The notes beneath the pieces are model-generated. The model made no database searches. It saw only the letters and a list, made by a program, of their open reading frames with translations, and had not been told where the DNA came from. Of a stretch of 64,000 nucleotides of DNA, positions 1,538-50,052 are shown piece after piece. The position numbers and the translations under genes were made by a program. The first letter of the stretch is position 1, and every line of letters starts with the position of its first letter. This stretch comes from a virus (Duplodnaviria; Heunggongvirae; Uroviricota; Caudoviricetes): IMG/VR virus record IMGVR_UViG_3300015177_000008, positions 47,519-111,518 of that record; one strand, written 5' to 3'.

Positions 1538-2078
1538 TGACATAATTTCTTAATGAACGAGTTAACGAACATTTGCAACTGCGAGTAAAAGCATTTGCTT
1601 CCAGAAATATTTAGATTGGAGTGTCTATGCCCCCAACAGGGCCGCGAATGCTATCACAAACGAAAAAGTGCAACAACACATGAATTAACTGAGATTTAAT
1701 GATTGTTAGGCATCTATAACCAAAATGTTGCAACAACTTAAAATCAATGTTACTTGATAATGTATCCCAAATAACAGGAGGAGCTATTTCAGTACATGAG
1801 AGGATGATTATTCTAACAACATGGGAAGTAAAACATTTTTATTATTACATGATCCATAAATTAGAAATAAATGACCTAAGTCGTGAATAAAGCCTTTTAA
1901 GAAATAAAGTCAGCTCTATATCCAAAAAATAACTTTGAGATAATGAACACTATATCACATACCACATCAATTAATAACAACCTTCTACTTATATAACTTA
2001 GAAGTTGGTAGTTATTTATATAAATGCATTATAGTTTGCAAGTGTTTTTAAATGTTCATTTAACGATACTCATGATTT

Positions 2079-2567
2079 CTAATCAAAATTATTCAGTGCT
2101 TTTTTATTTATCATCTCGAACATTTTTAGTTCATCGTCAGATAATCCCTCCCAAACTTTCTTCATGATTATATTTTGCACACGTATCATTCTTTGTATAA
2201 ATAAAACTCCATCTGATGTTAAACATAAATTTTTACCTCGGCGATCGAGTTCATTATCAACACGTTTGATAAGGTTTTGCTTTTCTAAGATATCTGTAAT
2301 TCGCGTTATATTTGTTTTAGAAACCTGCAACAGGTTACTAATTTCAGATGGGGATAAACAATGACCATCAGTAAAATATAATAATGATAATGCCATAAAC
2401 ATGGTATTGTTTATTTTATGCTTCTCTAGCGCATCTGATATGACGTCCTGCATTTTATTGCTAATCCGGATACATAATTGCATTAGCAAATGCTCCTGAA
2501 CAGGATAATCTGTCTCTTTATTTTTTTGATAATCAAGTATTTTTTCTAGAAAAAGCACGTTTTTCAT
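2079..2567 (-). CDS. MarR-family transcriptional regulator
   Basis: 162 aa ORF with ATG at 2567; winged-helix MarR-like pattern (SPSEISNLLQVSKTNITRITDILEKQNLIKR...DRRGK); AT-rich gene flanked by AT-rich intergenic DNA. Confidence 0.55.
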   Translation of the reverse strand: MKNVLFLEKILDYQKNKETDYPVQEHLLMQLCIRISNKMQDVISDALEKHKINNTMFMALSLLYFTDGHCLSPSEISNLLQVSKTNITRITDILEKQNLIKRVDNELDRRGKNLCLTSDGVLFIQRMIRVQNIIMKKVWEGLSDDELKMFEMINKKALNNFD

Positions 2568-2741
2568 TGTTGTATCCGGTATTGAATAATCATCTCATAA
2601 AAACCATGTAGCCTGTGTGTGATATCTATGTCCCAATGAAACTGGTAAAATAAAGTATAGCAGTTCAAGATTCCTTGCGCCACCTGAATTTTCTACAGAT
2701 AATGCAAAACACATAGCAGTAAAACCTTTCGTTTATAAATT

Positions 2742-3041
2742 TTATTTTTTCCTATAAACATATAGTTCTCCATGCGCTTTCTTTCTGTCTCGGTGTATTC
2801 CCATTTCTTTTTCTATTCGTATCGTAGCTTTACGTAACTCTTTTGATGTGCTAACATCTTTGGCTGCAATGTTTTTTGGCACCGCCTGCTTCATGCAGCG
2901 GCGTATTTGTTCTCTAACATATATTCGTTGGTCTACCTGTCCTTCCTGTCGATAATCCATCAGTACTTCCTGCCAGCGAACAGCAGCCCTGCGCCATAGT
3001 CCTCTTTGCTCAAGATCTTCGGCCTTCTTGTCTCTAACCAT
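2742..3041 (-). CDS. PerC-like small transcriptional activator (putative)
   Basis: ATG at 3041 preceded by GGAGG; 99 aa basic protein with GLWRRAAVRW motif reminiscent of the PerC family. Track ORF 2742..3056 begins at an upstream TTG. Confidence 0.4.
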   Translation of the reverse strand: MVRDKKAEDLEQRGLWRRAAVRWQEVLMDYRQEGQVDQRIYVREQIRRCMKQAVPKNIAAKDVSTSKELRKATIRIEKEMGIHRDRKKAHGELYVYRKK

Positions 3042-3418
3042 TTCCCCTCCAAACAAACGTATGCTACAGATTAACTACCTAAAAATTGAGTTTAACACTA
3101 ACTCATGTAATTAATACTAATGCAAGAAAATATTCACTAATATTTTTATCTTTTAGTTATAAACTAAATTTACATGTGGCTGTTTTGCAAAATGTAGACT
3201 TCCTATATTTTTTATGAAATGATTAGGAAAATAAATTTATTTTATAGCCTTAACACTATGGTCAATACATTTCTTAACACCCAATGCCATCACGAATGAA
3301 CTAAGGAAAAGCGGAATGGCCTTTGACGTTAAAATGCTCTAACTGGAGGTTGTTCATGTGTTTTTCTCTTATCGTTTAGTTACTACATTCTTACACAAAC
3401 CAAGTAAGTGTTTACCTA

Positions 3419-5105
3419 TCATTTAACGCGTTTGAAAACGTATACGCTGACTGTGATCCCTGTGTCTTCAAACTCGTTGGTAAACGACTTCCCTCTGGCA
3501 TAAACGTAATTATCCATCGTCATCCAGTCCAGTATTGGCGCAGTGCCCGGCAATACTGCTACAAGACGCCCGCCGACTTTCAGATGCCCCAGCGCAGCCA
3601 GCGTGTGCTCTCTATGACGACCAAGCGAGTACGGCGGGTTCATAACGATTTTGTCGAACTGATAACCTGCGTTGTCCTCAGACCACTTTATGAAGTCGCA
3701 GCAAATCGTGTTCGTATACCCTTTTCCACGCAGGATATCAGCAAAGAGAGGTGCGATTTCTATGCAGGTAACATCTTCCAGATCGGCGTTAATATAGGCC
3801 AGAAGATCCCCACGTCCGGCTTGAGGCTCCAACAGCTTCTCACCAGGCTTCAATTCAGTGGCTCTTGCAACGTACTCAGCAATCAAGCGTGGGGTAGGGT
3901 AGAACTGGTGTGATTTTGTATCCGGTATTAAACCGGTAGCCACAATCGTATTTAGCGTATGGCCGATGTCATACGGGAACTGCCAGTGCTTTTTCTCCTG
4001 CACGCCGCCAATGAAGCTCAGTGTGCGCTCAAGCTCTTCCACCTGCGACTTCTGGAGAGCTGAATCAGAGAAGTACCATACTCCTTTGTCTTTGCTCAAT
4101 CGCCCGTCACGAAGCGCAGTGCGAACCGGGACGGAGATCGTCTTCTGGATTAGCCCGAACTGCTTTGGTGCCCGTGTTTTTTGGCGCTCTGCGGCATGGC
4201 GCGGGGATTGCTGCAGGCATACTGTAAGCCAGCACCTCATTCAACTTCCAGGCCACGTCAGGATGTATTTCAAAGTGAACGTTGCCGTTCTTGAACATCT
4301 TCACGCGCATCAGATTTCCATCGACGTTCATCCAGTCACCGGTCTGGCAGTCGTTTGCCCGATACGCAGCTGATAGCACCTCAGCAGTGCGGTTGATGGT
4401 AATAAATTCTTTGTGCGCGAAGAAATGAAGCAAAACACGCAGATCGTCGATATAGTCCTCTTTGCGATAGTTCACACTAACGCTGTCCCGCCAGAAATCA
4501 GAAATGCAGTCAGCGATTATCAGACGCTCGCTGAAACCGTTCGTCTTATTTGTCTTGTGCGCAGGACTCAGCGCCTTAAACAAGCCATACACGCGCTCGG
4601 AGAGATATTTGTGCCTGTCATTCAGCAAATTAAGCATCGTTGGTATGACCGTTTCTGCTTTGAACTCCGGTACACCAACGAACTCTTTAACCTTCATCTG
4701 ATAGCCGGTTCTGTCAGTTTTGATGACTTCCTGCTTGCCCTCGATAAATTGCTCACGCCACTCGTCGCGACGGGAAGCTGGCATGATCAGCAAAACGTTA
4801 GTCATATCCGTGACCTTCCTCCAGTACTCGGCCCAAATATTCTGTTTCACCCATTCCAGATCGACTTTATCCAACCAACCTCGATTTAAACGCGAGCGAT
4901 CTTCATCTGGTCGATGGTTTAGTCTCAGCAGGCGATTAATCATGTTGTGGCGTTCGTCGCCATAAACGAAGTCGTGTACCTGATACATGAAGTCGATCTC
5001 TTTCTCGCACTCGGCCACGATTTCGTGGATGACATTCATTTCCTGACGATAGTCGATAGCCGTGTTTGAGCTGGCATCGTCGATGATGGAAAGGGCTGTA
5101 TTCAT
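3419..5105 (-). pseudogene. SAM-dependent methyltransferase-like gene (NPPY motif, DUF4942-like), disrupted by a frameshift
   Basis: Two overlapping minus-strand ORFs in different frames (4107..5105 and 3419..4240). The downstream frame carries EPQAGRGDLL and IVMNPPYS motifs; the tail of the first and head of the second look like out-of-frame sequence. Confidence 0.5.
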
Positions 5106-5209
5106 AATTGCACCATTAAGAAAAGATTTGTTTAATAGTGCAATTATTTCAAAAAATGAAAAGGTACTAAATAGAAATTAACAGGCAATCCTTTAAATAA
5201 AGGTATTTG

Positions 5210-5824
5210 CTAATCATACTTTGAGGTATTTATAACCAGGATTTTGTTTGTATAAATCTTCTTAATATCCCATGTGACGTTACCGGAATACCATTGACCG
5301 TTATATACTTGGTTTCCAGTTGCACCGGTCATAGTTACATAGACAGGTCTGTCGTAATCGGTTCGTCTAAAGTTATAAACCCCAACCATAGCAGGCATTA
5401 CCGCACACGGATACCCCATATCTATTGTAAATTGAGGGTCAGAAATAGTGATAAGTTTCGCATCAAGGGGCATCATCTCACCGTGATACACCATTGCGCC
5501 TGCGCTGTTATACATGGCAATGCCATAGCCAGAATGTGGTAACACCATATCAGAAAAAGCATAAACTGTTATTGTTCCGGGGCTACCATTTACCTGATGC
5601 AATCTGAGAGCATTGTATCCGTTACTATGTTCATGAATAAACATCATGTTCGCCTTATTACTGCTTTTTATGAAGAAAAAGCATGATTTGTTTGATGGGA
5701 TTGATGTTTTAAAAACAGAACCTTTAGATGCAGACATTGTCCCTTTATTAATCAGATTTTGCGGAGTAAATTCAGGACTCATCCACAAACTTCCATCTGA
5801 TTGAGTAATTGACATCCCGAACAT
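5210..5824 (-). CDS. Hypothetical protein, AT-rich, Asn/Tyr/Gly-rich
   Basis: ATG at 5824 lies 2 nt after the stop of the upstream ORF; track ORF 5210..5881 starts at an upstream TTG. No recognisable motif. Confidence 0.4.
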   Translation of the reverse strand: MFGMSITQSDGSLWMSPEFTPQNLINKGTMSASKGSVFKTSIPSNKSCFFFIKSSNKANMMFIHEHSNGYNALRLHQVNGSPGTITVYAFSDMVLPHSGYGIAMYNSAGAMVYHGEMMPLDAKLITISDPQFTIDMGYPCAVMPAMVGVYNFRRTDYDRPVYVTMTGATGNQVYNGQWYSGNVTWDIKKIYTNKILVINTSKYD

Positions 5825-5826
5825 AA

Positions 5827-6108
5827 TTATCCCCAGTATGTGTATATGTAAGAACCAAGCCCCGTATATAAATTTGACCAACTAACCGTATTTCCATTAA
5901 TAGTAACATTTGGAACAGGTAAATTGATGTAGTTGTCGTTGTTAAGAGGCATTAATGACCACACGGCATGTAGTGATTTACCCGGTGGCGGATTAGAGTA
6001 CGTCTTAGAGCCTGATGATGCCGTAAACCGATCAAGAAAAAAAATAGGTGTAAGGAAGCCAGTAACGTTAATTCCTTTATTGTTGTAAATCCCTGTACCG
6101 TATGCCAT
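5827..6108 (-). CDS. Hypothetical protein, AT-rich, Asn/Gly/Thr-rich
   Basis: 93 aa ORF with ATG at 6108; directly followed by the 5210..5824 gene. Confidence 0.4.
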   Translation of the reverse strand: MAYGTGIYNNKGINVTGFLTPIFFLDRFTASSGSKTYSNPPPGKSLHAVWSLMPLNNDNYINLPVPNVTINGNTVSWSNLYTGLGSYIYTYWG

Positions 6109-6162
6109 TTTTCATCCTTGTTTTTATCAACATAATATGGCCGATCATGCGGCCATATCAGA

Positions 6163-6732
6163 TCAATTAGAGCTTTGAAAGGCTTTGTGTGGCTGTGTTG
6201 CGAGGTTATGTCGATGGCTTAACTCACGCATCATGTCTTCAAGGCGACTCTTTGTGTCGTCGAGCTGGTCGGCCATTGCTCCCAAAAGCTGACGAACGGC
6301 CATTGGATCGTCACTGTTTAGTGACGGCATTTTATAACCCGCCTTAGAAGACATCAGATTGAATGCAGACATCAACATTGTTAGAGAAAACTTAAGTCCG
6401 GCAATTTCACGATCTTTGCTGGCAATAATCGTCTCACTTTTGTTACCGTCATGAGTTCCTTGAGTCTCGCTCACCATATCCAAAGTCGCTTGCAACTTAT
6501 CAGCTCTCTCTTTTTCAGCAAGGTAATGAACGCCGAAATGATGTGCTAAAGCTACAACCTGAGTTGGTTCTTCAAAGGTGGAATTAAAATTAAGTACTGT
6601 AAACAGTCTCTCAAATATGGAAACGTCTTCTGTTCCCCGAACAATGCCTAACATTTTGACAAGTTCATTAGCATCCATTTCTTCGAATAGGGCGTTTTGT
6701 TCATCAGCTATTGCTTTGCATTTCTCGCACAT
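6163..6732 (-). CDS. Hypothetical protein (first gene with backbone-type 5' signals)
   Basis: 189 aa ORF; start in the conserved context AAGGAAAACACATG and preceded by a class-1 palindrome. Confidence 0.5.
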   Translation of the reverse strand: MCEKCKAIADEQNALFEEMDANELVKMLGIVRGTEDVSIFERLFTVLNFNSTFEEPTQVVALAHHFGVHYLAEKERADKLQATLDMVSETQGTHDGNKSETIIASKDREIAGLKFSLTMLMSAFNLMSSKAGYKMPSLNSDDPMAVRQLLGAMADQLDDTKSRLEDMMRELSHRHNLATQPHKAFQSSN

Positions 6733-6750
6733 GTGTTTTCCTTAATGCTT

Positions 6751-6764
6751 AAACAAGTTGTTTT
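6751..6764. promoter_or_regulatory. Class-1 palindrome AAACAA-N-TTGTTT (putative operator)
   Basis: aaacaagttgtttt, about 20 nt upstream of the 6163..6732 start on the minus strand. Confidence 0.45.
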
Positions 6765-6871
6765 CTTATGTGCTTTATTGTGATGTGGCATATAAGGGGA
6801 GCAAGCTAAACGTAAAGGTGCAAACTCTCTATTTTGGTCAACGAAACACAAGGGCCATTTGGCCCTTGTCA

Positions 6872-7030
6872 TTAACACGTTGCTTTACGGACTAGCGGAT
6901 AGGCGAAGTAGATCGCCAAACCAATGAGGACGCCATCAGAAATGACAGACATCATCTTTCCCGTGAAATCAACCAACACCGCCATCACCAGAAGAGCAAT
7001 GACGGTCACAAGCCGGAATCTCTCAAGCAT
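6872..7030 (-). CDS. Small membrane protein (52 aa)
   Basis: ATG overlaps the stop of the upstream gene (TAATG); hydrophobic MLERFRLVTVIALLVMAVLV...; below the track size cut-off. Confidence 0.3.
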   Translation of the reverse strand: MLERFRLVTVIALLVMAVLVDFTGKMMSVISDGVLIGLAIYFAYPLVRKATC

Positions 7031-7455
7031 TAGAGATAAGCATCCAGTGACAACTGAAGCGCCTGGGCGATCTTTTTCAGCGCCTGCTCTTCTTGTTCAC
7101 CAATGCCGTCCTGGTCGGCAATATCAAGGCACAGACACAGAACATCGACCGCCTCTGGAGTGCCCGCAATATCAGCCAGCTCACGCATAGCCTGTGCATT
7201 AGCGGAACGAGGGGACGCTTCGTAACGAGCACGGATATTGGCGCTCATTTGGGCAATTTCACCAGCAAACGGAGAAAACGCAGGCAGAGCTGCAATTGTT
7301 TTCTCAAGAATGGCAATTTCTTTTGCGTCACATGTGCCGTCGGCATAGGAGATCATGTACGCGCCCCACACGGTGGCCTCAACCGCATCACGGTTCTCCA
7401 TTTTTTTGACTTCAATAACAGCTTTACGAGTTTTCTTTTTGAAGAAACCTAACAT
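7030..7455 (-). CDS. Hypothetical protein
   Basis: 141 aa ORF; start context GGAAAACACATG; class-1 palindrome upstream. Confidence 0.5.
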   Translation of the reverse strand: MLGFFKKKTRKAVIEVKKMENRDAVEATVWGAYMISYADGTCDAKEIAILEKTIAALPAFSPFAGEIAQMSANIRARYEASPRSANAQAMRELADIAGTPEAVDVLCLCLDIADQDGIGEQEEQALKKIAQALQLSLDAYL

Positions 7456-7478
7456 GTGTTTTCCTTTTATTATTTGTC

Positions 7479-7493
7479 AAAACAAGTTGTTTT
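7479..7493. promoter_or_regulatory. Class-1 palindrome (putative operator)
   Basis: aaaacaagttgtttt upstream of the 7030..7455 start. Confidence 0.45.
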
Positions 7494-7548
7494 CTAGTTT
7501 CATATATTGCTTGCGCAAAGATGGTCAATGCATATGCACTAACAACCG

Positions 7549-7737
7549 TCAGAAATAACCAAGTACCGAACCGACTGGAAAAATAAAAATCCCAACTACA
7601 CGAGCCAAGGTCATGCCAGCCTGAAACTGGAGATCGCCAGAGCAAACAAGTTTTATAATGTTCGATACCCAACCGGCGGCCATGAGGGCCAGAATTGCCA
7701 GCCAAATTTTTCCAAAGTGATTTGAAAACCAGTTCAT
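7549..7737 (-). CDS. Small membrane protein (62 aa)
   Basis: Hydrophobic ORF; start overlaps the stop of 7734..7985 by 4 nt. Confidence 0.4.
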   Translation of the reverse strand: MNWFSNHFGKIWLAILALMAAGWVSNIIKLVCSGDLQFQAGMTLARVVGIFIFPVGSVLGYF

Positions 7738-7985
7738 ACAACCGCCTTAGTCACAGCATGATCCTGAGTAACTGGATGAACTTGAGGTATCGCATCCACC
7801 GCCATCCCATCCAGAGTGACAGGACGCTCCACTGGAGTGGTGGTAATTGTCGTCGACGAAGGTGTGGTGATGGATGAATCCGGCATCAAAAGGCTCTGAC
7901 CGGCTGGAACGGCTACCGTCGCCAGTGAAACTATAATGAGAACGTAGGCCATTGGTTTCAGCCTCTTTCTTTGAAAATTTTCCAT
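7734..7985 (-). CDS. Small secreted/membrane protein with Thr/Pro-rich tail (putative)
   Basis: N-terminal hydrophobic segment MAYVLIIVSLATVAVPAG; 4-nt overlap coupling to the next gene; lies entirely inside 7747..8241 in another frame. Confidence 0.35.
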   Translation of the reverse strand: MENFQRKRLKPMAYVLIIVSLATVAVPAGQSLLMPDSSITTPSSTTITTTPVERPVTLDGMAVDAIPQVHPVTQDHAVTKAVV

Positions 7986-8241
7986 CCGAACGGTCCTTGT
8001 TGTTTTTCTCCTTCACTAAAGGCCGTGCATTTTTCGCTTCACATGAAGAACTGGAGGTTACAATCGCCCCCACGTTCGCAACAACTGACGCTTGCTTATC
8101 TAAACGTGCCTTCAGCACCAGAACGGTAGTTTCCAATTCATCAAGACGTGACAGAAGGCGACCGCTAAATAATTCGGCCAAAATTTGACGTAAAGAACGA
8201 GGGCGTTTAGTTGCAGGAGTTAAAAAAAATTGACGTGCCAT
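7747..8241 (-). CDS. Hypothetical protein (C-terminal half possibly out of frame)
   Basis: N-terminal 85 aa look protein-like (coiled-coil); C-terminal part is low-complexity and overlaps 7734..7985. Confidence 0.35.
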   Translation of the reverse strand: MARQFFLTPATKRPRSLRQILAELFSGRLLSRLDELETTVLVLKARLDKQASVVANVGAIVTSSSSCEAKNARPLVKEKNNKDRSDGKFSKKEAETNGLRSHYSFTGDGSRSSRSEPFDAGFIHHHTFVDDNYHHSSGASCHSGWDGGGCDTSSSSSYSGSCCD

Positions 8242-8370
8242 GTGGACTCCATCCAGTGTCAGAAAGAGTTGCGGCTGGCGATTGCCAGCCGCCTTTCTCG
8301 TTCCATCCTGGAACTGTGTCTTACCGACACATTGTCATCCTGACGCCGATAAGATACATGATTTAACATA

Positions 8371-8390
8371 ATAGGTAAACACTTACTTAC
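8371..8390. promoter_or_regulatory. Class-2 AT-rich palindrome (ATARGTA...TACYTAT family)
   Basis: ataggtaaacacttacttac, overlapping the rnhA stop codon. Confidence 0.3.
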
Positions 8391-8980
8391 TGATTATTGT
8401 AAACAAAACCAATATCTTTCTTGTGAGGCGTATCTGCTGCGGAAAAAGCTGCGATCTTCGCCAGTCGATCACAGATTTCATTTTCACGATGCCCGGCGTG
8501 GCCTTTAACCCACTTCCAGCGAACATTATGTCGACTGGCAGCCTCATCCAGACGCTTCCACAGATCAACATTCTTTACTGGTTTTTTATCAGAAGTCATC
8601 CATCCATTACGTTTCCACCATTTCATCCACTGTGTCATGCCGTTTTTCAGATACTGGCTATCAGAGTGCAAAATAACGTTGCATGGATATTTCAAACGCT
8701 CCAGCCCGATAAGTGCCCCCATCATCTCCATGCGGTTATTGGTGGTGCTATGAAAACCATCTGAGAACTCGCGTTCCTCTCCACGATACTGGAGAACGAT
8801 ACCGTAACCGCCTGGGCCACCCGGATTTTTAAGGCAAGAGCCATCACTGAAGATTTTCACGGTTTTAAGCTGGGGATTGAACTCTACGACAGGCGTTGTG
8901 GGATTGGTGCGGGGAGAATTTTTGTTTTTGGCTTTTTTGCGAGTTTTTTCTTGCGATCGGGCTGGTGTCTTCGTCGTCAT
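8387..8980 (-). CDS. rnhA: Ribonuclease H
   Basis: ATG at 8980 with AGGAG upstream; RNase HI motifs ([32 protein letters not shown]). Track ORF extends upstream to 9034. Confidence 0.8.
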
Positions 8981-36479: not shown

Positions 36480-36704
36480 ATGAAGCAACATCCGAATAAG
36501 CATATTCAAGCAGCCATTGACTATGCATTAAGTAAAGGCTGGATCTGGGTAGCAGCTGGTGGTGCTGCACATTGTTTTTGCAGACTGCGATGCGGTAATC
36601 CAGAAGGTGAACACAAAACTCACCAAATGAGCGTATGGTCGACTCCGGGTAATCCCGAAAACCATGCCAAACAGATCAAACGAATGGTTGATCGTTGTAA
36701 ATGA
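36480..36704 (+). CDS. Small basic protein, possible HicA-like toxin
   Basis: 74 aa; KGW...AH...HKTH pattern loosely like HicA; first gene of a two-gene plus-strand insert. Confidence 0.3.
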   Translation: MKQHPNKHIQAAIDYALSKGWIWVAAGGAAHCFCRLRCGNPEGEHKTHQMSVWSTPGNPENHAKQIKRMVDRCK

Positions 36705-36764
36705 TTTCAAGGCGGCATTAGCCGCCTTTTGCAGAAACTGTCCAACTATCTTCAAAGGAAAACT

Positions 36765-37328
36765 ATGGCGCTTTATAACTTCACTCTGACGCTCTCAGGC
36801 GTATCGTATGAGACGGAAGGACTGGAAGACGCGCTGTACCAAAACGGCTGTGACGATGCGCTAATTTGCGCATATGGAAACTCCGTCTATGTAGAATTTG
36901 ACCGCGAAGCACAATCACTTGATGCAGCTATCGCATCTGCGGTCGACAATATTGAATCAGCCGGTATCGGTGCAATTGTTGAATCCGTCGACTCGGCTCT
37001 TGTGGGCTTAAGCGATATCGCGGAACTGACAGACCTGTCTCGCCAGGCAGTGGCGTTGCTCAAAGACGGTAAGCGCGGAAGCGGCGACTTCCCTTGCCCT
37101 GTACAACGCATAAAAGGCCAGTCTCCTCTCTGGGATTGGGCTGATGTGGCTGAATGGCTCATGAATAACGGACGACTTAAAGAGGGCGATCAAATTGTCC
37201 AAAATGCCCGAACTTTGAGTAAATGGAATCTGGCGCTTCGAAACAGCGTCTCGAAAGATTTCAACGAAATAGAGCAAATTGCGGAGAAACTGATTAAACG
37301 CCGCAAAGATATTGCGAAATGCGCATAA
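36765..37328 (+). CDS. HTH-containing protein, possible HicB-like antitoxin
   Basis: ATG at 36765 after AAGGAAAA; helix-turn-helix LSDIAELTDLSRQAVALLKDGKRG; terminator-like hairpin atgcccgccaattggcgggcat follows. Confidence 0.35.
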   Translation: MALYNFTLTLSGVSYETEGLEDALYQNGCDDALICAYGNSVYVEFDREAQSLDAAIASAVDNIESAGIGAIVESVDSALVGLSDIAELTDLSRQAVALLKDGKRGSGDFPCPVQRIKGQSPLWDWADVAEWLMNNGRLKEGDQIVQNARTLSKWNLALRNSVSKDFNEIEQIAEKLIKRRKDIAKCA

Positions 37329-37657
37329 TGATGCCCGCCAATTGGCGGGCATCTGTTCTCTGTAAAGGTGTCTGGCATCGTCTGGTTCGTTAACGTTTAC
37401 TAAACCAATGGTGACAAAAATTAGTTATCTTTGAAAAATAAAGGTTGCATGAAAAGAAGGGGTATGCGTTAATAGCATCGTTGGTTTGCAAGACAGACCT
37501 TATGTAAGCAGTTTTAGTAAAGCAGTCTCAGTTCAGTGTTATCTTCTGATTTCCCTTCTTCGTGAGTCTCCTCCTTAAGTGCCTAAGTAAGTCCCAATCT
37601 ATACAGATCAAATTCTCGCCGCACTATGTGGCTCACAAAATTAAGAAGGTAATATCT

Positions 37658-37873
37658 ATGTCTAATAAAATGACTGGTTTAGTAAAATGGTTTAACTCTG
37701 ATAAAGGCTTTGGCTTTATTTCTCCTGCTGATGGCAGTAAAGATGTTTTTGTACATTTTTCGGCAATTCAGAGTAATAATTTCCGCACTTTGGAAGAAGG
37801 CCAGCAGGTCGAATTCTCTATCGAGAATGGGGCTAAAGGCCCAGCAGCAGCAAATGTCGTTGCTCTAAGCTGA
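37658..37873 (+). CDS. Cold-shock protein, CspA family
   Basis: [38 protein letters not shown]... (RNP1/RNP2 motifs); long 5' leader of about 160 nt; track ORF starts upstream. Confidence 0.85.
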
Positions 37874-38151
37874 TTCAACGCTGATGATCCTCATTTCTAC
37901 AATAACGAAGACGGTGTAAGCCTGAGTGGATAGATTTGTAGGATTGTACAAGTTGAATAAATTAGCATGGTAAGGCCATGCTAATTAAATCGACACAACG
38001 GCCAGTTTATTCCATAAAAGTGAATTGCCCATTGTGGCGAAATGCGGGGTTGCCGCATGAATAGTCAAAGGCAGAAGCTAACTGCCGGCATGGCAAAACA
38101 AAGTGCGTAAGAGGAGTGACTTCCTCAACAAGCGCCATAATTCTTTATAAA

Positions 38152-38178
38152 CCCGCCAACAGGCGGGTTTTCTTTATT
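38152..38178 (+). terminator. Rho-independent terminator
   Basis: cccgcc aaca ggcggg followed by ttttctttatt; abuts the dnaE stop on the other strand. Confidence 0.5.
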
Positions 38179-41100
38179 ACTTATTTATTGTCTCCGCGAT
38201 ATCAGCCAGAATGGCCTCCAGTCGCTCTCCTTCTTCCGGTCGGAAGTACAGGATATTCGGGTTAAATCCGTAGAAGACGGTTGCATCAAGCTCTGGGAAG
38301 TACTCCTTACGACCAATCAGATCTGATGGTTTACTCTTATTGTTAAATAGTGCGGTTGAACGACTACCACACGTCAAAATGTAGGTTGGTCGTACAAGAT
38401 TAATTTCTTCCCGCATAAAGTCTGTGAACTGGCCTATCTCGTCTTTGGTATAGTCTTTCTCTTTGTCCTTAACCTTCTTACAAACACCCGTGACATAAAG
38501 ATCGCCCATGCGCAGATCTCCAACTGTCAGTAGTTTTGCCTTAAAGTCGTCGTATCCGTTCTCCATGAAGTAGCCGGTACGAGCGTCATTGCCGTTCGCA
38601 TTGTCCAGAATGATCATGATTTTGGGTTTAATACCAATAGTCGGGCGTATCAACTCCTCACCCAAGCCCATTTCAGCCGCCATACGTGTCATGAGTACGT
38701 TGATTTCGGCAGAACGCTTAGGATTCATTTCGAACGGACGTGATGCTTTAACAGCGTCAATGATGAGATTGCCCATCAGCTCAGCCTGGTCGCGCAGTCG
38801 TTCAGGATCAGTTGCTGGCAGACTGCCTGGCTCAATTGACGCAAAAGCCCCTACTTTATGAAGCGACTCGCGTACACGACTGTTACATGCACGCTTCTCG
38901 ACCGCTTCATCGAATTGTGCCACTGACTCGAATTTGCCACCAACTTTCTCACGCGCACGCATAATTGCCTGACAACCATTTTCAGAACAGCCTTTCACAG
39001 CAGAGAATGGCGCATACAGTGCCTGACTGCCGTCTTCGAGTGTGCGGATCTCAATTCGGTTAGATGACACATTAACGTCTGGTGGCAATACGCGAATGCC
39101 ATAGGTCAGCGCATCCTTCACCAGCCCCTGATGCTTATCCTCGCCCAGAATGGTGAGCGCAGCTGCGAAGAACTCAGCAGGGTAGTGCGTCTTTAGCCAC
39201 ATAGACTGATAACTGATTAAAGAATAAGCAACGGAGTGTGATTTATTGAACTGATAGGCTCCGTTTTTCTCAAATGCGGTCCAGATCTCCTTCGCTTTCA
39301 TCTCTGATAGCCCTGGATGTGACGCTGTAACGCGTACTGCGTTTATAGGTAGTTTTGCGCCGTGCTCAAGTGCCTCTTCGACAGTTTTCAGAGTTCCGTC
39401 TTCGCATTTAAAATGTTCCGCACGGTGAATGCGCTGTGTAGTGCCATCTTCCAGCTCAACGTCTATCCAGCCAGCTTGAGCCTGAACGATGAACTTCTCG
39501 CCCATGCTCTTCATTTTTTCCATGTTCTTCTTACCGATTGCGGAACGCACAGCGTCAGCTTCAGCCATTGTGAAGCCGGCAAGCAATCGAGTCGCGTTCA
39601 TCGTCTGTTCCTGATAGAGAATCACGCCATTTGTTTCCGCGGTAAGTTTATCAAGAACGGGGTGTAATGATTCCGGCGTCATAAAGCCTTTGGCGACAGA
39701 AACATAGTCATCCAACATGCCTGATTGAATTGGCCCCGGCCGGAAGAGCGCAGTTGTAGCGACGACCGTTTTAAAGCTCATTGGCTCAATTCCACCACCT
39801 AAATCTTTAAGCAGCTTGCGCATTGGGCCTGATTCAAGCTGGAAAACACCTTGAGTGTACCCAGCAGCAAAACCATCCAGCACCTTGCGATCTTCAAGAG
39901 AAATGGCATCAAGATTGATATCTTCACCTGTGTTCTCTTTTATGTAGCGTTTTGCACTATCGAGCAAATCGAGAGTTGCCAGGCCAAGCACGTCCAGCTT
40001 AATTAGGCCCATAGCCTCGCAGTAACGCTTGTCAAATGCGATACAACGCGCGTCACCACGGCGCTCAACCGGTGTACGTTCTGTCAGAGGAACACCTGCT
40101 ACGATCATCCCTGCCGCATGTCTACCAAAGCCACGCATAAGGCTTTGTAACTTGCAGGCTGCATTGAATGCATCAGGATATTTTGTTGCGTATTTGTCGA
40201 GACTTGCCAGTTGTTCGCGCAGTTCTTCCAATGGAAGGCTATCATCCTCAGCGTTCTTCAGTTCTTTTGATACCGCCATATCTGCGGACTCCACACCATA
40301 AATACGAGCGGTGTCACGTAGTGCAGAGGCTGCGCCCAGGTAGGTGAAGTTCGGAATGCCTGCAACGTAATCTTCGCCGTAGCGTTCATTCAGATACTCG
40401 ATCACCTCATGGCGACGTGCCTGGCTGAAGTCCAAATCCGCATCTGGCAAGTCGAGACGCTCAGGGTTGATGAAACGCTCAAACAGAAGACCGTGACGGA
40501 TTGGGTCGACGTTGGTTATGCCTATGCACCACGCCACCAGAGAACCGGCAGAGGAACCACGACCAGGCCCAACGGGAATGCCAGTTTCACGACTATGATT
40601 CATCAGATCGCGCACCATCAGGAAGTAACCACAGAATCCCAGGCGAGTCAGCGTGTCCATTTCGTACTTTAGCCGCTCAACATAAACCCTGTTCTCAGAA
40701 GCAGGTGGTGTGTATCCAAACTCTTTTGTGGTAAGACGTTTACGCAGCCCTGCAACAGCCAGTTTCATAAGCGTTGCAGGCTCGTCGTCTGCCATCTTTG
40801 GCAGTGCTGGCGGCAATTCATGCCAGCGCCATGTGCAGGCATCGATAATGGTATCCTGCGTTGTTGAGGCCATTGCAGCTGTTACCGGCACATCCATGCG
40901 AACGGAGAAGGCTTTAAGCGCCTCAAGGAGATGGCGGCGACCATTGACGGCGTTATCTCGCTGGTGGGGGATACGCAGACGATGCGGCTGGTCGATTTTG
41001 ATGTTGTTCGTAACCATGTGCGCAATGTCTTTAATGTCTGCATCGTCGATCGATTCGTAATAAGCGGGATAGAACGCCACTGGCTCTATTTTCAATGCGC

Positions 41101-41695
41101 TGGCGACTTTCATCGCCCGGACGTTAATCTGGTCGTAGAATGGGGTAGGGTGCGGATAAACCACACTATAGAAGTTGTCTTTTCCACCCGCTGTAATCAG
41201 TGTGCTTATGATTTTTGCAAAATCGTTGCGTTGGAACACGCTACCGATGTCGGAAGTAAGCAGGATGATGTTGCCTTTGGCATATGTAGAAACCAACTGT
41301 TCGAGCGAGAGACGCGGTACAAAGTAGAACTGTTCTCGTGTGTTGGCCGCCGTCATTAGTTCGCAGATGTCGCGATATCCTTGCTCATTTTTAATTAGAG
41401 CGGTAAACGAGTAGTTACGTCCCCGCTCTAATGATTCCATACATCTCATAGATTCTTTAGCAAGTTTAGCCCGGTGCTCGTATGTGGGATCATCAACAAT
41501 GTTTAGTTTCACACCACAAATAACCGCCATGTCGTCACCAGCGGCACGTTGTAGTGGAATAACGCTCGCAATATTCATGCTATCTGCTGAAATTACAGCG
41601 GTGTAGCCAGCTTCTCTGGCAATCTTCACCGCGTTTTCTGCTTTTAGAGCCGACTCCCCAAGTGAGAAGTCAGTTCGAACCATCAGTGCCTTCAT
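38177..41695 (-). CDS. dnaE: DNA polymerase III alpha subunit (DnaE family)
   Basis: 1172 aa; N-terminal PHP-like region and polymerase-core motif GRGSSAGSLVAWCIGIT; start context GGTAAAAACACATG. Confidence 0.85.
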   Translation of the reverse strand: MKALMVRTDFSLGESALKAENAVKIAREAGYTAVISADSMNIASVIPLQRAAGDDMAVICGVKLNIVDDPTYEHRAKLAKESMRCMESLERGRNYSFTALIKNEQGYRDICELMTAANTREQFYFVPRLSLEQLVSTYAKGNIILLTSDIGSVFQRNDFAKIISTLITAGGKDNFYSVVYPHPTPFYDQINVRAMKVASALKIEPVAFYPAYYESIDDADIKDIAHMVTNNIKIDQPHRLRIPHQRDNAVNGRRHLLEALKAFSVRMDVPVTAAMASTTQDTIIDACTWRWHELPPALPKMADDEPATLMKLAVAGLRKRLTTKEFGYTPPASENRVYVERLKYEMDTLTRLGFCGYFLMVRDLMNHSRETGIPVGPGRGSSAGSLVAWCIGITNVDPIRHGLLFERFINPERLDLPDADLDFSQARRHEVIEYLNERYGEDYVAGIPNFTYLGAASALRDTARIYGVESADMAVSKELKNAEDDSLPLEELREQLASLDKYATKYPDAFNAACKLQSLMRGFGRHAAGMIVAGVPLTERTPVERRGDARCIAFDKRYCEAMGLIKLDVLGLATLDLLDSAKRYIKENTGEDINLDAISLEDRKVLDGFAAGYTQGVFQLESGPMRKLLKDLGGGIEPMSFKTVVATTALFRPGPIQSGMLDDYVSVAKGFMTPESLHPVLDKLTAETNGVILYQEQTMNATRLLAGFTMAEADAVRSAIGKKNMEKMKSMGEKFIVQAQAGWIDVELEDGTTQRIHRAEHFKCEDGTLKTVEEALEHGAKLPINAVRVTASHPGLSEMKAKEIWTAFEKNGAYQFNKSHSVAYSLISYQSMWLKTHYPAEFFAAALTILGEDKHQGLVKDALTYGIRVLPPDVNVSSNRIEIRTLEDGSQALYAPFSAVKGCSENGCQAIMRAREKVGGKFESVAQFDEAVEKRACNSRVRESLHKVGAFASIEPGSLPATDPERLRDQAELMGNLIIDAVKASRPFEMNPKRSAEINVLMTRMAAEMGLGEELIRPTIGIKPKIMIILDNANGNDARTGYFMENGYDDFKAKLLTVGDLRMGDLYVTGVCKKVKDKEKDYTKDEIGQFTDFMREEINLVRPTYILTCGSRSTALFNNKSKPSDLIGRKEYFPELDATVFYGFNPNILYFRPEEGERLEAILADIAETINK

Positions 41696-49448: not shown

Positions 49449-49535
49449 TGGCGGAGAGTAATGGAATCGAACCATCATCGCTTGCGCAATGGGACGGTTT
49501 TCAAGACCGCTTGAGCACCATGCTCCCTACTCTCC
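49449..49535 (-). tRNA. tRNA-Ser (anticodon UGA), type II
   Basis: Manual fold: acceptor GGAGAGT/ACTCTCC, anticodon loop CTTGAAA, long variable arm, T-loop TTCGATT, discriminator G, encoded CCA. Confidence 0.7.
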
Positions 49536-49679
49536 GGCCGTTGTGGTGGCCGGTACTGAATCTCCGGCATACGGTGCAGCCAATTAGGACTACGGACGAT
49601 CACCGCTCGCGAAAGGGAAGATTTGCGGCCGCATTTCCCTAACATCCAAGAAAGCTATCGCATCAGTCTGCGAATCCAC

Positions 49680-49759
49680 CACAACGGTAAGATCACTACC
49701 TTTCGACCAGTCATTGTGCACATGAACGACGATTAACCGTAATGATCTTATCGTTGTGT
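49680..49759. repeat. Long hairpin B (16-bp stem, 1 mismatch)
   Basis: cacaacggtaagatca ... tgatcttatcgttgtg. Confidence 0.5.
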
Positions 49760-49809
49760 TGTGAAGCCAGATGCTTATCTTCTGGTTGCTTCAAAGAGCT
49801 GCACTTCCT

Positions 49810-49897
49810 CACAACGGTAAGAGCACTGGTCTGACTCTATCGATTTACGGGCTTGTGGGTCAGTATCGCCGATTCGCCCAATGCTCTTACCTGTTGT
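49810..49897. repeat. Long hairpin C (16-bp stem, 1-nt bulge), 2 nt after tRNA-Thr
   Basis: cacaacggtaagagca ... tgctcttacctgttgtg. Confidence 0.5.
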
Positions 49898-49899
49898 GT

Positions 49900-49975
49900 T
49901 GGTGCCGGTTAACGGGATCGAACCGCTGACATCCTGCTTACAAGGCAGGCGCTCTACCAACTGAGCTAAACCGGC
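49900..49975 (-). tRNA. tRNA-Thr (anticodon UGU)
   Basis: Manual fold: acceptor GCCGGTT/AACCGGC, D-arm GCTC..GAGC, anticodon stem CCTGC/GCAGG with loop CTTGTAA, T-loop TTCGATC, encoded CCA. Confidence 0.8.
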
Positions 49976-49977
49976 AT

Positions 49978-50052
49978 TGGCGATGGTGGGTGGATTCGAA
50001 CCACCGACCAGTTGGTTAACAGCCAACTGCTCTACCGCTGAGCTACACCATC
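49978..50052 (-). tRNA. tRNA-Asn (anticodon GUU)
   Basis: Manual fold: acceptor GATGGTG/CACCATC, anticodon stem GTTGG/CCAAC with loop CTGTTAA, T-arm GGTGG TTCGAAT CCACC, encoded CCA. Confidence 0.8.

What the first reader, a model, noticed from the sequence alone, without database searches (positions are those of the whole stretch)
37329..38178. Host-like cspA-type cold-shock gene with a long 5' leader and two downstream hairpins
The CspA-family protein is very similar to enterobacterial CspA as I recall it, and carries about 160 nt of leader after a TTGCAT/TTAATA promoter-like pair, as in the chromosomal cspA. A 300-nt non-coding tail with two hairpins follows. An RNA chaperone on a phage-plasmid may aid early gene expression or low-temperature maintenance.
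Basis: partly seen in the sequence, partly recalled or inferred. Interest (0 to 1): 0.4.

Follow-up and report, generated by a model that had tools for sequence, protein, structure and literature searches.

The report
Phage-plasmid cold-shock gene, structured 3' tail
This is a real, long-kept cold-shock RNA-chaperone gene on an E. coli phage-plasmid, with the usual cold-sensing leader, so it is ordinary, except that its tail folds into a conserved RNA structure that matches no described RNA family.

Summary
Window 37329-38178 is the whole intergenic block between hicB and a convergent dnaE on an SSU5-like phage-plasmid (99.9% identical to phage Cyrano, 100% to many E. coli plasmids).

It holds a self-contained csp cassette:
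- a cspA-type promoter: -35 TTGCAT, then TG-n-GTTAAT;
- a leader of about 178 nt that matches Rfam's cspA thermoregulator (185.7 bits, threshold 78);
- a 71-aa CDS at 37658-37873;
- a 303-nt tail ending in an intrinsic terminator.

The protein is closer to CspB/G/I (81-83%) than to CspA (73%). RefSeq already annotates it as cspG. It is not a recent or dead capture. Klebsiella and Citrobacter phage-plasmids carry it at the same place, with saturated synonymous sites and dN/dS of about 0.04.

The tail is more than two hairpins. It is a chain of conserved helices, including a 111-nt four-helix junction (38031-38141). That junction also lies downstream of cspB in the K-12 Qin prophage and across the Enterobacteriaceae, always after a csp gene. 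It is better conserved than the CDS, shows compensatory changes, holds no ORF and has no Rfam match. Its function is unknown.

The gene is ordinary. The 3' RNA is the interesting part.

The parts
37330..37353 (+). Intrinsic terminator closing the upstream hicA/hicB unit. It marks the 5' boundary of the csp cassette.
   Evidence: The terminator scan finds a 10-bp stem with 8 G-C pairs followed by a T-rich tail. hicA and hicB are named in the Cyrano annotation.
37433..37473 (+). cspA-type promoter: an A-rich block (AAAATAA, 37435-41), the -35 hexamer TTGCAT (37445-50), and an extended -10, TG (37465-66) followed by GTTAAT (37468-73).
   Evidence: These are invariant columns in the alignment with cspA, cspB, cspG, cspI and the Klebsiella phage-plasmid csp (A5). 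The generic sigma-70 scan does not pick it up, so the assignment rests on homology alone.
37480..37657 (+). 5' leader of about 178 nt. It contains the cold-box hairpin (GGUUUG 37483-88 paired with CAGACC 37494-99; cold box UGCAAGACAGAC 37487-98), an extended version of the GCCGAAAGGC upstream-box hairpin (about 37618-37634), and the Shine-Dalgarno AAGG at 37646-49.
   Evidence: Rfam RF01766 (cspA thermoregulator) matches 37480-37898 at 185.7 bits against a gathering score of 78. See also alignment A5. The cold-box hairpin folds in all four leaders tested. The transcription start is placed by homology with the cspB/cspG start used in PMC7815308.
37658..37873 (+). csp CDS: a 71-aa cold-shock-domain protein of the CspB/G/I type.
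   Evidence: ORF list, protein alignment, NCBIfam CspG equivalog above its cut-off, purifying selection. RefSeq plasmids annotate it as cspG.
37880..37951 (+). D1: proximal 3'UTR long imperfect hairpin with a conserved apex (ACGAAGACGG...GCCUGAGU). This part is tentative.
   Evidence: RNAalifold on 5 sequences predicts it, with 17 of 36 pairs in the prediction (D1 plus D2) keeping pairing through changes on both sides. The sequence block is conserved in Klebsiella, Citrobacter, Qin and divergent loci. The sample is small.
37960..37986 (+). It is not a terminator, because no U-run follows it.
   Evidence: It is present in the minimum-free-energy fold. A helix at the same position, with unrelated sequence, occurs in 10 lineages; 6 of its 9 pairs show changes on both sides. 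A weak Rfam miRNA match here is spurious.
38000..38030 (+). D2b: a helix (GGCCAGUUUAUU paired with AAGUGAAUUGCC) leading into the four-helix element.
   Evidence: RNAalifold on 10 sequences predicts 11 pairs that are mostly kept.
38031..38141 (+). D3: the four-helix junction RNA element. P1 is 38031-39 with 38133-41. P2 is 38042-47 with 38053-58. P3 is 38069-74 with 38082-87, with the invariant loop AAGCUAA. An invariant single-stranded stretch AAAGUGCGUAAG lies at 38100-38111. P4 is 38111-15 with 38122-26.
   Evidence: On 37 variants, 95.9% of cells are paired, 9 of 26 pairs change on both sides, 0 of 500 shuffles reach the observed values, and slid controls pair at 23-60%. RNAalifold predicts the same helices independently, and so does the single-sequence fold. 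With divergent members added, 13 of 26 pairs change on both sides. The covariance model scores the window copy at 120 bits, E = 1e-29. There is no Rfam family and no conserved ORF.
38149..38179 (+). Intrinsic terminator of the csp unit (AAACCCGCC-AACA-GGCGGGUUU followed by UUCUUUAUU). It abuts the stop codon of the convergent dnaE (38177-79, minus strand).
   Evidence: The terminator scan flags it on the + strand only. It is homologous to the terminator in the Klebsiella and Citrobacter phage-plasmids and in Qin cspB. The dnaE ORF is 38177-41695, minus strand.

Best explanation
The region is a self-contained, cold-inducible csp expression cassette carried as an accessory gene (a 'moron') by SSU5-like phage-plasmids.

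Proposed mechanism, by analogy with E. coli cspA/B/G/I:
- A cspA-type promoter fires constitutively or is boosted in the cold.
- At 37 C the long leader makes the mRNA short-lived and poorly translated, and prone to premature termination.
- After a temperature drop the leader adopts the translatable fold, the mRNA is stabilised, and a 71-aa CspB/G/I-type RNA chaperone accumulates. It melts RNA structure for host and element transcripts.

The 303-nt 3'UTR is a chain of conserved helices ending in an intrinsic terminator. Its core is a four-helix junction shared with the Qin-prophage cspB locus. My best guess is that this acts in cis as a 3' stability and decay-control domain for the csp mRNA. 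It would block 3' exonucleases, and Csp or cold-induced RNases could open it.

Shown here: the identity of promoter, leader and CDS by homology; purifying selection; conservation at the same position across phage-plasmids; the RNA structure of the tail.

Inferred, not shown: cold induction in this element, any benefit to host or plasmid, and every function proposed for the 3' element.
For: - The Rfam cspA thermoregulator matches at 185.7 bits against a threshold of 78.
- The promoter core, cold box, Shine-Dalgarno region and first codons are conserved with cspA/B/G/I.
- The CDS passes the CspG and CspA NCBIfam cut-offs.
- dN/dS is 0.04 against Citrobacter. Against Klebsiella, pS is 0.79 and pN is 0.03.
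- The same gene lies next to dnaE in 100-114 kb E. coli, Citrobacter and Klebsiella phage-plasmids.
- The unit is bracketed by terminators and runs opposite to the recombination genes upstream of hicAB and to the downstream dnaE.
- In strain LF82 (host of Cyrano) the related Tritos prophage's cspB and cspI are transcribed 59- and 93-fold above the prophage background in lysogens (PMC9928086).
- 3' element: structure and covariation. It is 84% identical between the window and Qin, against 81% for the CDS, 56% for the leader and 50% for the spacer. By regex, 180 of 188 copies have a csp ORF upstream. Of the other 8, five were regex misses, two have IS insertions, and one locus is truncated and uninformative.
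- G-U pairs are valid only on the csp strand.
Against: - There are no expression data for this gene. The Cyrano annotation omits it, so the LF82 transcriptome table does not report it.
- The Klebsiella phage-plasmid lacks D2b and D3 yet keeps the gene, so the four-helix element is dispensable for csp itself.
- Equilibrium folding at 10-37 C shows no thermoswitch, but it fails for the cspA control too, so it is uninformative.
- The cis-stability role of D3 is a guess. Nothing here separates it from an sRNA or a protein-binding role.
Confidence: 0.75

Rival explanations
1. The four-helix element plus terminator is released from the csp mRNA, or transcribed on its own, as a stable 3'UTR-derived small RNA. 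It would act in trans through the invariant single-stranded AAAGUGCGUAAG or the AAGCUAA loop, on host or element mRNAs, or as a sponge.
For: - The element is better conserved than the CDS.
- It has invariant unpaired stretches flanked by helices that co-vary.
- In most clades it is followed by a G+C-rich terminator with a U-tail, the usual 3' end of enterobacterial sRNAs.
- It behaves as a discrete module, present or absent between phage-plasmid lineages.
Against: - No promoter-like site lies upstream of it.
- The PHB10/Enterobacter clade has no separate terminator hairpin after it.
- The window holds no more matches complementary to the invariant 12-mer than chance predicts: 6 found, 6.3 expected.
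- The papers searched mention no sRNA at the K-12 cspB 3' end.
- A 111-nt four-way junction is atypical for Hfq-type sRNAs (my own knowledge).
Confidence: 0.25
2. The Csp serves the phage side of the element rather than cold adaptation. It would act as an RNA chaperone or transcription antiterminator that helps early or late gene expression during lytic growth or plasmid replication at any temperature.
For: - The gene sits among replication and recombination genes (dnaE, a gp32-like SSB, an exonuclease, RecA/UvsY).
- In lambdoid relatives the homologous cassette lies between the Q antiterminator and the lysis genes, where late transcription passes through it.
- CspA-family proteins are known antiterminators (established knowledge, not tested here).
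Against: - The cassette has its own cspA-type promoter and leader. It is insulated by terminators on both sides and runs opposite to the replication and recombination genes around it, though it shares its strand with the hicAB pair upstream.
- The control elements kept under selection are those of cold-inducible csp genes.
- Only 85 of 50,697 phage records encode a Csp, and SSU5 itself gave no hit, so the gene is not a core phage function.
Confidence: 0.15
3. The gene is a recent, decaying or unexpressed capture from the host, and the tail is just spacer plus terminators. Its apparent conservation would reflect recent horizontal transfer, not selection.
For: - About 90 E. coli plasmids carry a copy that is 99-100% identical, so within E. 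coli the conservation says nothing.
- There are no expression data.
Against: - Across genera the synonymous sites are saturated while the protein stays 93% identical.
- The nearest chromosomal csp genes are only 71-80% identical in nucleotides.
- Within one and the same pair of loci, the tail element is 84% identical while the leader and spacer are 50-56%.
- Compensatory changes are present in all four helices, and divergent members scoring 34-68 bits keep the architecture.
Confidence: 0.03

Closest known systems
E. coli K-12 cspB cassette in the Qin prophage (also lambdoid phages Tritos, 2H10, HannyBb, PhiR63_1)
   Same: The whole unit aligns end to end: promoter, cold-box leader, CDS (82% aa identity), proximal 3'UTR block, D2 hairpin, D2b, four-helix D3 (84% nt identity) and terminator.
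   Different: - The Qin-type unit sits between the Q antiterminator and the lysis genes, paired with a divergent cspF and a convergent ynfU. Here it stands alone between hicAB and dnaE on a plasmid-prophage.
- The leader and spacer are only 50-56% identical.
- The leader is about 178 nt here against about 160 nt.
E. coli cspA mRNA thermosensor (Rfam RF01766)
   Same: A full-length match to the model over the leader and CDS, at 185.7 bits. The -35 hexamer, the extended -10, the cold box, the upstream-box hairpin and the Shine-Dalgarno context are shared.
   Different: - The protein is only 73% identical to CspA.
- The cspA terminator part of the model is not matched, because a 303-nt structured 3'UTR intervenes.
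- Temperature switching was not shown here.
cspG-ymcF-ymcE-gnsA and cspI-ynfQ-ynfR-ynfN-gnsB loci of E. coli K-12
   Same: These are the closest proteins (83% and 81%). RefSeq uses the name cspG for this gene. They have the same promoter and leader type.
   Different: Those genes are followed by small protein-coding genes. This one is followed by a non-coding structured RNA, and the covariance model finds no D3 element in the cspG, cspI or cspA loci.
3'UTR-derived sRNAs and protein-protected mRNA 3' ends of enterobacteria (for example CpxQ, SdhX, and ProQ at the cspE 3' end). Recalled from my own knowledge, not tested.
   Same: The 3'UTR is better conserved than its CDS, has invariant unpaired stretches, and ends in a terminator with a U-tail.
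   Different: - The element is much larger and branched (a four-way junction).
- There is no evidence of processing or of Hfq or ProQ binding.
- One clade has no adjacent terminator hairpin.

Membership tests
CspA family of cold-shock-domain proteins (CspB/G/I subgroup) | A single cold-shock domain of about 70 aa, with the RNP1 motif (K-G-F-G-F-I) and the RNP2 motif (V-F-V-H-F). | tested here: met
   The protein is 71 aa, with KGFGFI at residues 16-21 and VFVHF at 30-34. It scores 146.6 bits on the NCBIfam CspG equivalog (cut-off 144) and 140.2 bits on the CspA subfamily model (cut-off 130).
CspA family of cold-shock-domain proteins (CspB/G/I subgroup) | RNA-chaperone or nucleic-acid-melting activity, and induction by cold. 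| not testable with these tools
   This needs biochemistry and expression assays. Only purifying selection (dN/dS 0.04-0.15) argues that the protein is functional.
cspA thermoregulator mRNA (Rfam RF01766) | A score above the curated gathering threshold over the long 5'UTR plus the start of the CDS. | tested here: met
   185.7 bits against 78, covering model positions 1-428.
cspA thermoregulator mRNA (Rfam RF01766) | The cold box near the 5' end, the upstream-box hairpin before the Shine-Dalgarno sequence, and a cspA-type promoter with TTGCAT and an extended -10. | tested here: met
   Alignment A5 with cspA/B/G/I. The cold-box hairpin folds in all leaders tested.
cspA thermoregulator mRNA (Rfam RF01766) | A temperature-dependent switch between a poorly translated 37 C fold and a translatable cold fold. 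| tested here: inconclusive
   Equilibrium folding at 10, 15, 25 and 37 C showed no change in Shine-Dalgarno or AUG accessibility. The cspA positive control showed none either, so the test has no power.
Intrinsic (Rho-independent) terminator | A G+C-rich hairpin directly followed by a U-run on the transcribed strand. | tested here: met
   38149-38170 forms a 9-bp stem with 6 G-C pairs, followed by UUCUUUAUU. It is flagged on the + strand only. The scan found 2 sites against 0.6 expected in shuffles.
Any described RNA family, for the 3' four-helix element (Rfam 15, 4227 models) | A match to a curated covariance model. | tested here: not met
   Nothing covers 38031-38141 even at E <= 10 on the tail alone. 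Only terminator-like fragments and a spurious miRNA hairpin hit appear.
Hfq/ProQ-type 3'UTR-derived sRNA (considered for D3) | A stable processed or separately transcribed 3' fragment, chaperone binding, and a seed complementary to its targets. | not testable with these tools
   Only the anatomy could be checked. Conserved unpaired stretches and a terminator are present. The window shows no excess of complementary sites, and there is no promoter-like site upstream.
Small protein gene in the tail (such as ymcF/ynfQ/ynfR downstream of cspG/cspI) | An ORF kept open in one frame across homologues. | tested here: not met
   No frame stays open across the 37 variants: three variants have at most 23 codons open in every frame. 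One-nucleotide indels shift the short ORFs between clades. The 28-aa ORF at 37978-38064 is not conserved.

The most novel reading that the evidence does not exclude
The csp 3'UTR, and above all the 111-nt four-helix junction at 38031-38141, is an undescribed class of conserved structured RNA. It is tied to cspB-type cold-shock genes across the Enterobacteriaceae, including the K-12 Qin prophage. It would act either as a regulated 3' stability domain or as the source of a trans-acting RNA in the cold-shock response. That it is a genuine selected RNA structure I put at about 0.8. That it is also unreported and has a specific regulatory role I put at about 0.45.
Probability: 0.45. Interest if true: 0.6.

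Novelty: new member of a known kind. Interest (0 to 1): 0.4.

Why it matters
The gene adds little. Cold-shock genes on prophages are known (Qin cspB, cspF, cspI), and this one is already annotated as cspG on dozens of plasmids. It does show two things:
- SSU5-like phage-plasmids of several genera have kept a complete, cold-type csp unit for a long time. That points to selection outside the warm gut (the environment, food, transmission).
- At least one reference annotation (phage Cyrano) misses the gene, so its expression has gone unreported.

The more useful result is the tail. A roughly 300-nt 3'UTR built of helices that co-vary, with a four-helix junction better conserved than the coding sequence, sits in a well-studied E. 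coli K-12 locus and matches nothing in Rfam. Work on cold-shock regulation has centred on the 5' leaders. A conserved 3' domain would be a directly testable new layer: mRNA decay control, or a 3'-derived RNA.

Tried and rejected
- **Small proteins in the tail.** I suspected a YmcF/YnfQ/YnfR-like ORF. Those genes lie downstream of cspG and cspI, not cspB. No ORF is conserved in the tail.
- **AgvB/Pas-type prophage sRNAs.** The Pas sRNA preprint does not mention csp, and no link to AgvB-type anti-sRNAs turned up.
- **tRNA-like cloverleaf.** ARAGORN finds no tRNA there, and the junctions are far too long.
- **Known ribozyme, riboswitch or sRNA.** No Rfam match.
- **Complementarity of the invariant 12-mer.** It matches the window no more often than chance (6 found, 6.3 expected). 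An 8-bp match inside the csp CDS is not conserved in cspB.
- **Thermoswitch by equilibrium folding at 10-37 C.** Uninformative, because the cspA control fails too.
- **Generic sigma-70 scan.** It does not recognise the csp promoter, so the promoter call rests on homology.
- **Term-seq supplements of PMC7815308.** They list only 5'UTR and internal 3' ends for cspB, and nothing for its 3'UTR in the text held.
- **MAFFT plus RNAalifold on the set with divergent members.** It recovers P1, P2 and P4 but misaligns P3. The model-guided alignment keeps P3 but leans towards the model.
- **Literature searches.** I found no described cspB 3' element and no comment on csp in SSU5-like phage-plasmids.

Full report
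**What is there**

The finding's coordinates (37329-38178) are exactly the intergenic block between the stop codon of a + strand gene (36729-37328) and the stop codon of a convergent 1172-aa pol III alpha gene (dnaE, 38177-41695, minus strand). The window is an SSU5-like phage-plasmid. This block is 99.9% identical to Escherichia phage Cyrano, the phage-plasmid of strain LF82, and 100% identical to many 95-120 kb IncFIB E. coli plasmids. In Cyrano's annotation the two upstream genes are hicA and hicB. The csp gene itself is not annotated there, although RefSeq plasmids call it cspG.

**The gene**

The CDS is 37658-37873 and encodes 71 aa: [71 protein letters not shown]. It carries both RNP motifs. 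Identity to other Csp proteins:

| Compared with | aa identity |
|---|---|
| CspA | 73% |
| CspB | 82% |
| CspG | 83% |
| CspI | 81% |
| Klebsiella phage-plasmid pJN2-26 homologue | 93% |

It just passes NCBIfam's CspG equivalog cut-off (146.6 against 144) and also the CspA subfamily cut-off. So it belongs to the cold-inducible CspB/G/I subgroup and is not especially CspA-like.

**Not a recent or dead capture**

Promoter, leader and CDS occur at the same place, next to dnaE, in phage-plasmids of about 105-114 kb from Citrobacter (88% nt identity) and Klebsiella (about 82%).

| Window compared with | Result |
|---|---|
| Citrobacter phage-plasmid | dN/dS = 0.04 |
| Klebsiella phage-plasmid | synonymous sites saturated (pS 0.79), pN 0.03 |
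| Chromosomal or prophage csp genes of K-12 | 71-80% nt identity |

Csp genes are uncommon in phages: 85 of 50,697 records have one, and SSU5 itself gave no hit.

**Promoter and leader**

I aligned the region with cspA, cspB, cspG, cspI and the Klebsiella copy (A5). The invariant features are:
- an AAAATAA block;
- TTGC of the -35 hexamer (TTGCAT, 37445-50);
- TG (37465-66);
- TTAAT of GTTAAT (37468-73);
- GGTTTG at the transcript start.

A generic sigma-70 scan misses the site because the -10 is non-canonical. The Rfam cspA thermoregulator model matches 37480-37898 at 185.7 bits against a gathering score of 78. The transcription start inferred from homology, and from the cspB/cspG start used for reporter constructs in PMC7815308, is about 37480. 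That gives a leader of about 178 nt. The cold box (UGCAAGACAGAC) and its 5' hairpin, an extended version of the GCCGAAAGGC upstream-box hairpin, the AAGG Shine-Dalgarno sequence and the first codons are all conserved.

I could not show temperature switching. Equilibrium folding between 10 and 37 C changes nothing, but it changes nothing for cspA either. PMC7815308 also reports Rho-dependent premature termination in the cspB and cspG 5' regions at 37 C, which may apply here by homology.

**Insulation**

A strong terminator at 37330-37353 closes hicB. Another, at 38149-38170 with a T-run, closes csp and abuts the dnaE stop codon. The cassette is thus an autonomous unit. It runs opposite to dnaE and to the recombination genes further upstream, though it shares the + strand with the adjacent hicAB pair. 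This is the anatomy of a moron. In LF82 lysogens the related Tritos prophage's cspB and cspI are transcribed 59- and 93-fold above the prophage background (PMC9928086). The Cyrano csp was not scored because it is not annotated.

**The tail**

The 303-nt tail folds much better than shuffled sequences (z = -6.5). Comparative analysis shows much more.

*Homology with the Qin cspB cassette.* The entire cassette is homologous to the cspB cassette of the K-12 Qin prophage and of lambdoid phages such as Tritos and 2H10. Within that pair of loci, identity differs sharply by segment:

| Segment | Window vs Qin cspB |
|---|---|
| Leader | 56% |
| CDS | 81% |
| Proximal tail (spacer) | 50% |
| Block 38031-38143 | 84% |

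*More copies.* Pattern scans of IMG/VR and of one genome per species found this block in Escherichia, Shigella, Enterobacter, Kluyvera, Kosakonia, Phytobacter, Superficieibacter, Pseudescherichia, Leclercia, Atlantibacter and Raoultella.

*Structure.* On 37 distinct variants (A3) a four-helix junction is supported:
- 95.9% of cells are paired;
- 9 of 26 pairs change on both sides;
- none of 500 shuffles reaches the observed values;
- slid controls pair at only 23-60%.

RNAalifold predicts the same four helices on its own, and so does the single-sequence fold of the window copy.

*Divergent members.* A covariance model built from A3 found copies scoring 34-68 bits downstream of other csp genes. 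With them included, 13 of 26 pairs change on both sides, though that alignment is model-guided.

*Strand and coding.* Frequent G-U pairs are valid only on the csp strand. No reading frame is conserved.

*Link to csp.* Every copy follows a csp gene by 86-179 nt. The apparent exceptions are regex misses (KWYN, or a DMVKWFN N-terminus, in place of the expected motif), IS insertions, or one truncated locus that cannot be judged.

*Unpaired invariant parts.* These are the P3 loop AAGCUAA and the 12-mer AAAGUGCGUAAG.

*Known families.* Rfam has no family for the element, even at E <= 10 on the tail alone. The literature searches found no description of it.

**The rest of the tail**

The rest of the tail is also conserved structure.
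- A further helix (D2b, 38000-38030) leads into the junction.
- A proximal long hairpin (D1, about 37880-37951) has a conserved apex, but its support is weaker.

In the Klebsiella phage-plasmid, D1, D2 and the terminator are retained, but D2b and D3 are cleanly absent. The junction is therefore a discrete module that csp can do without.

**How it most likely works**

The cassette works as a cold-inducible csp gene of the cspA type. This is inferred from homology of every control element and is not shown by experiment.

For the 3' domain I favour a cis role in mRNA 3'-end stability and decay control. It is always co-oriented with csp and a fixed short distance after it, it has no promoter-like site of its own, and csp mRNA levels are known to be set largely by stability (established knowledge). 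A 3'UTR-derived trans-acting RNA is a serious rival. The data here do not separate the two.

**Novelty and score**

The gene and leader are a new member of a known kind and are already annotated, so the finding as written is ordinary. The structured 3'UTR, especially the four-helix junction, appears to be undescribed and is present in E. coli K-12 itself. That raises the interest to moderate.

Noticed in passing
window 37658-37873; L213 (phage Cyrano OV696614) 5330-5545: The reference annotation of phage Cyrano has no CDS for this csp gene, although RefSeq plasmids annotate the identical sequence as cspG. As a result, the published LF82 moron-expression table cannot report it.
   Followed up: partly
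window 36480-37353: A hicA (36480-36704) and hicB (36729-37328) toxin-antitoxin pair lies directly upstream and ends in a strong terminator at 37330-37353. Both genes are listed as expressed morons of Cyrano in PMC9928086.
   Followed up: partly
window 49449-50052 (minus strand): A cluster of three tRNA genes (Ser-tga, Thr-tgt, Asn-gtt) is carried by the phage-plasmid.
   Followed up: no
L003 (K-12 Qin) about 2428-2475: The Qin cspB 3'UTR holds a perfect Shine-Dalgarno-like UAAGGAGGU followed by an 11-codon ORF (MKQWLAYLAKS). By my own pairing by eye, the Shine-Dalgarno-like sequence forms the 3' arm of the conserved D2 hairpin. The ORF is absent from the window, so it is probably not a gene.
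   Followed up: partly
L210 1185-1964; L212 514-1572: The paralogous loci cspG and cspI are followed by small protein genes: ymcF/ynfQ (annotated 'cold-shock protein'), ymcE, ynfR and gnsA/gnsB. cspB-type loci carry the structured RNA in that position instead. The covariance model finds no D3 element in the cspG, cspI or cspA loci.
   Followed up: partly
L003 2699-2869; L182 6835-7035; L245 1824-1994 and others: In chromosomal and prophage copies the module is cspF/H-like gene (divergent), cspB-like gene, 3' RNA, then a convergent YnfU-like zinc-ribbon gene of 56-73 aa. The phage-plasmid has taken only the csp unit with its RNA.
   Followed up: partly
L041 about 1800-3010; L120: An IS3-family element has inserted immediately upstream of the four-helix element (L041). 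A second transposase-like insertion, which I took to be IS1 but did not confirm, lies inside the cspB CDS (L120). These two loci, plus the truncated locus L177, are the only ones where the element is not shown to follow an intact csp.
   Followed up: yes
L191 (Raoultella lignicola) 4465-4635: In this copy the 5' half of the four-helix element (P1 and P2) is replaced by tandem GCCTGAAA repeats, while P3, the invariant 12-mer and P4 remain. It scores 85 bits.
   Followed up: no
L169 (IMG/VR contig of 85 kb) 254-8830: A related phage-plasmid-like contig carries csp and the 3' element next to the same gp32-like, exonuclease and 143-aa genes. Downstream of the csp unit, beyond two small ORFs, where the window has dnaE, it has a 2858-aa ORF.
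   Followed up: no
L211 1730-1942 (NZ_CP152468.1): In this K-12-derived RefSeq record, the gene at the cspA position (between yiaG and hokA) is labelled cspE by the automatic annotation.
   Followed up: no
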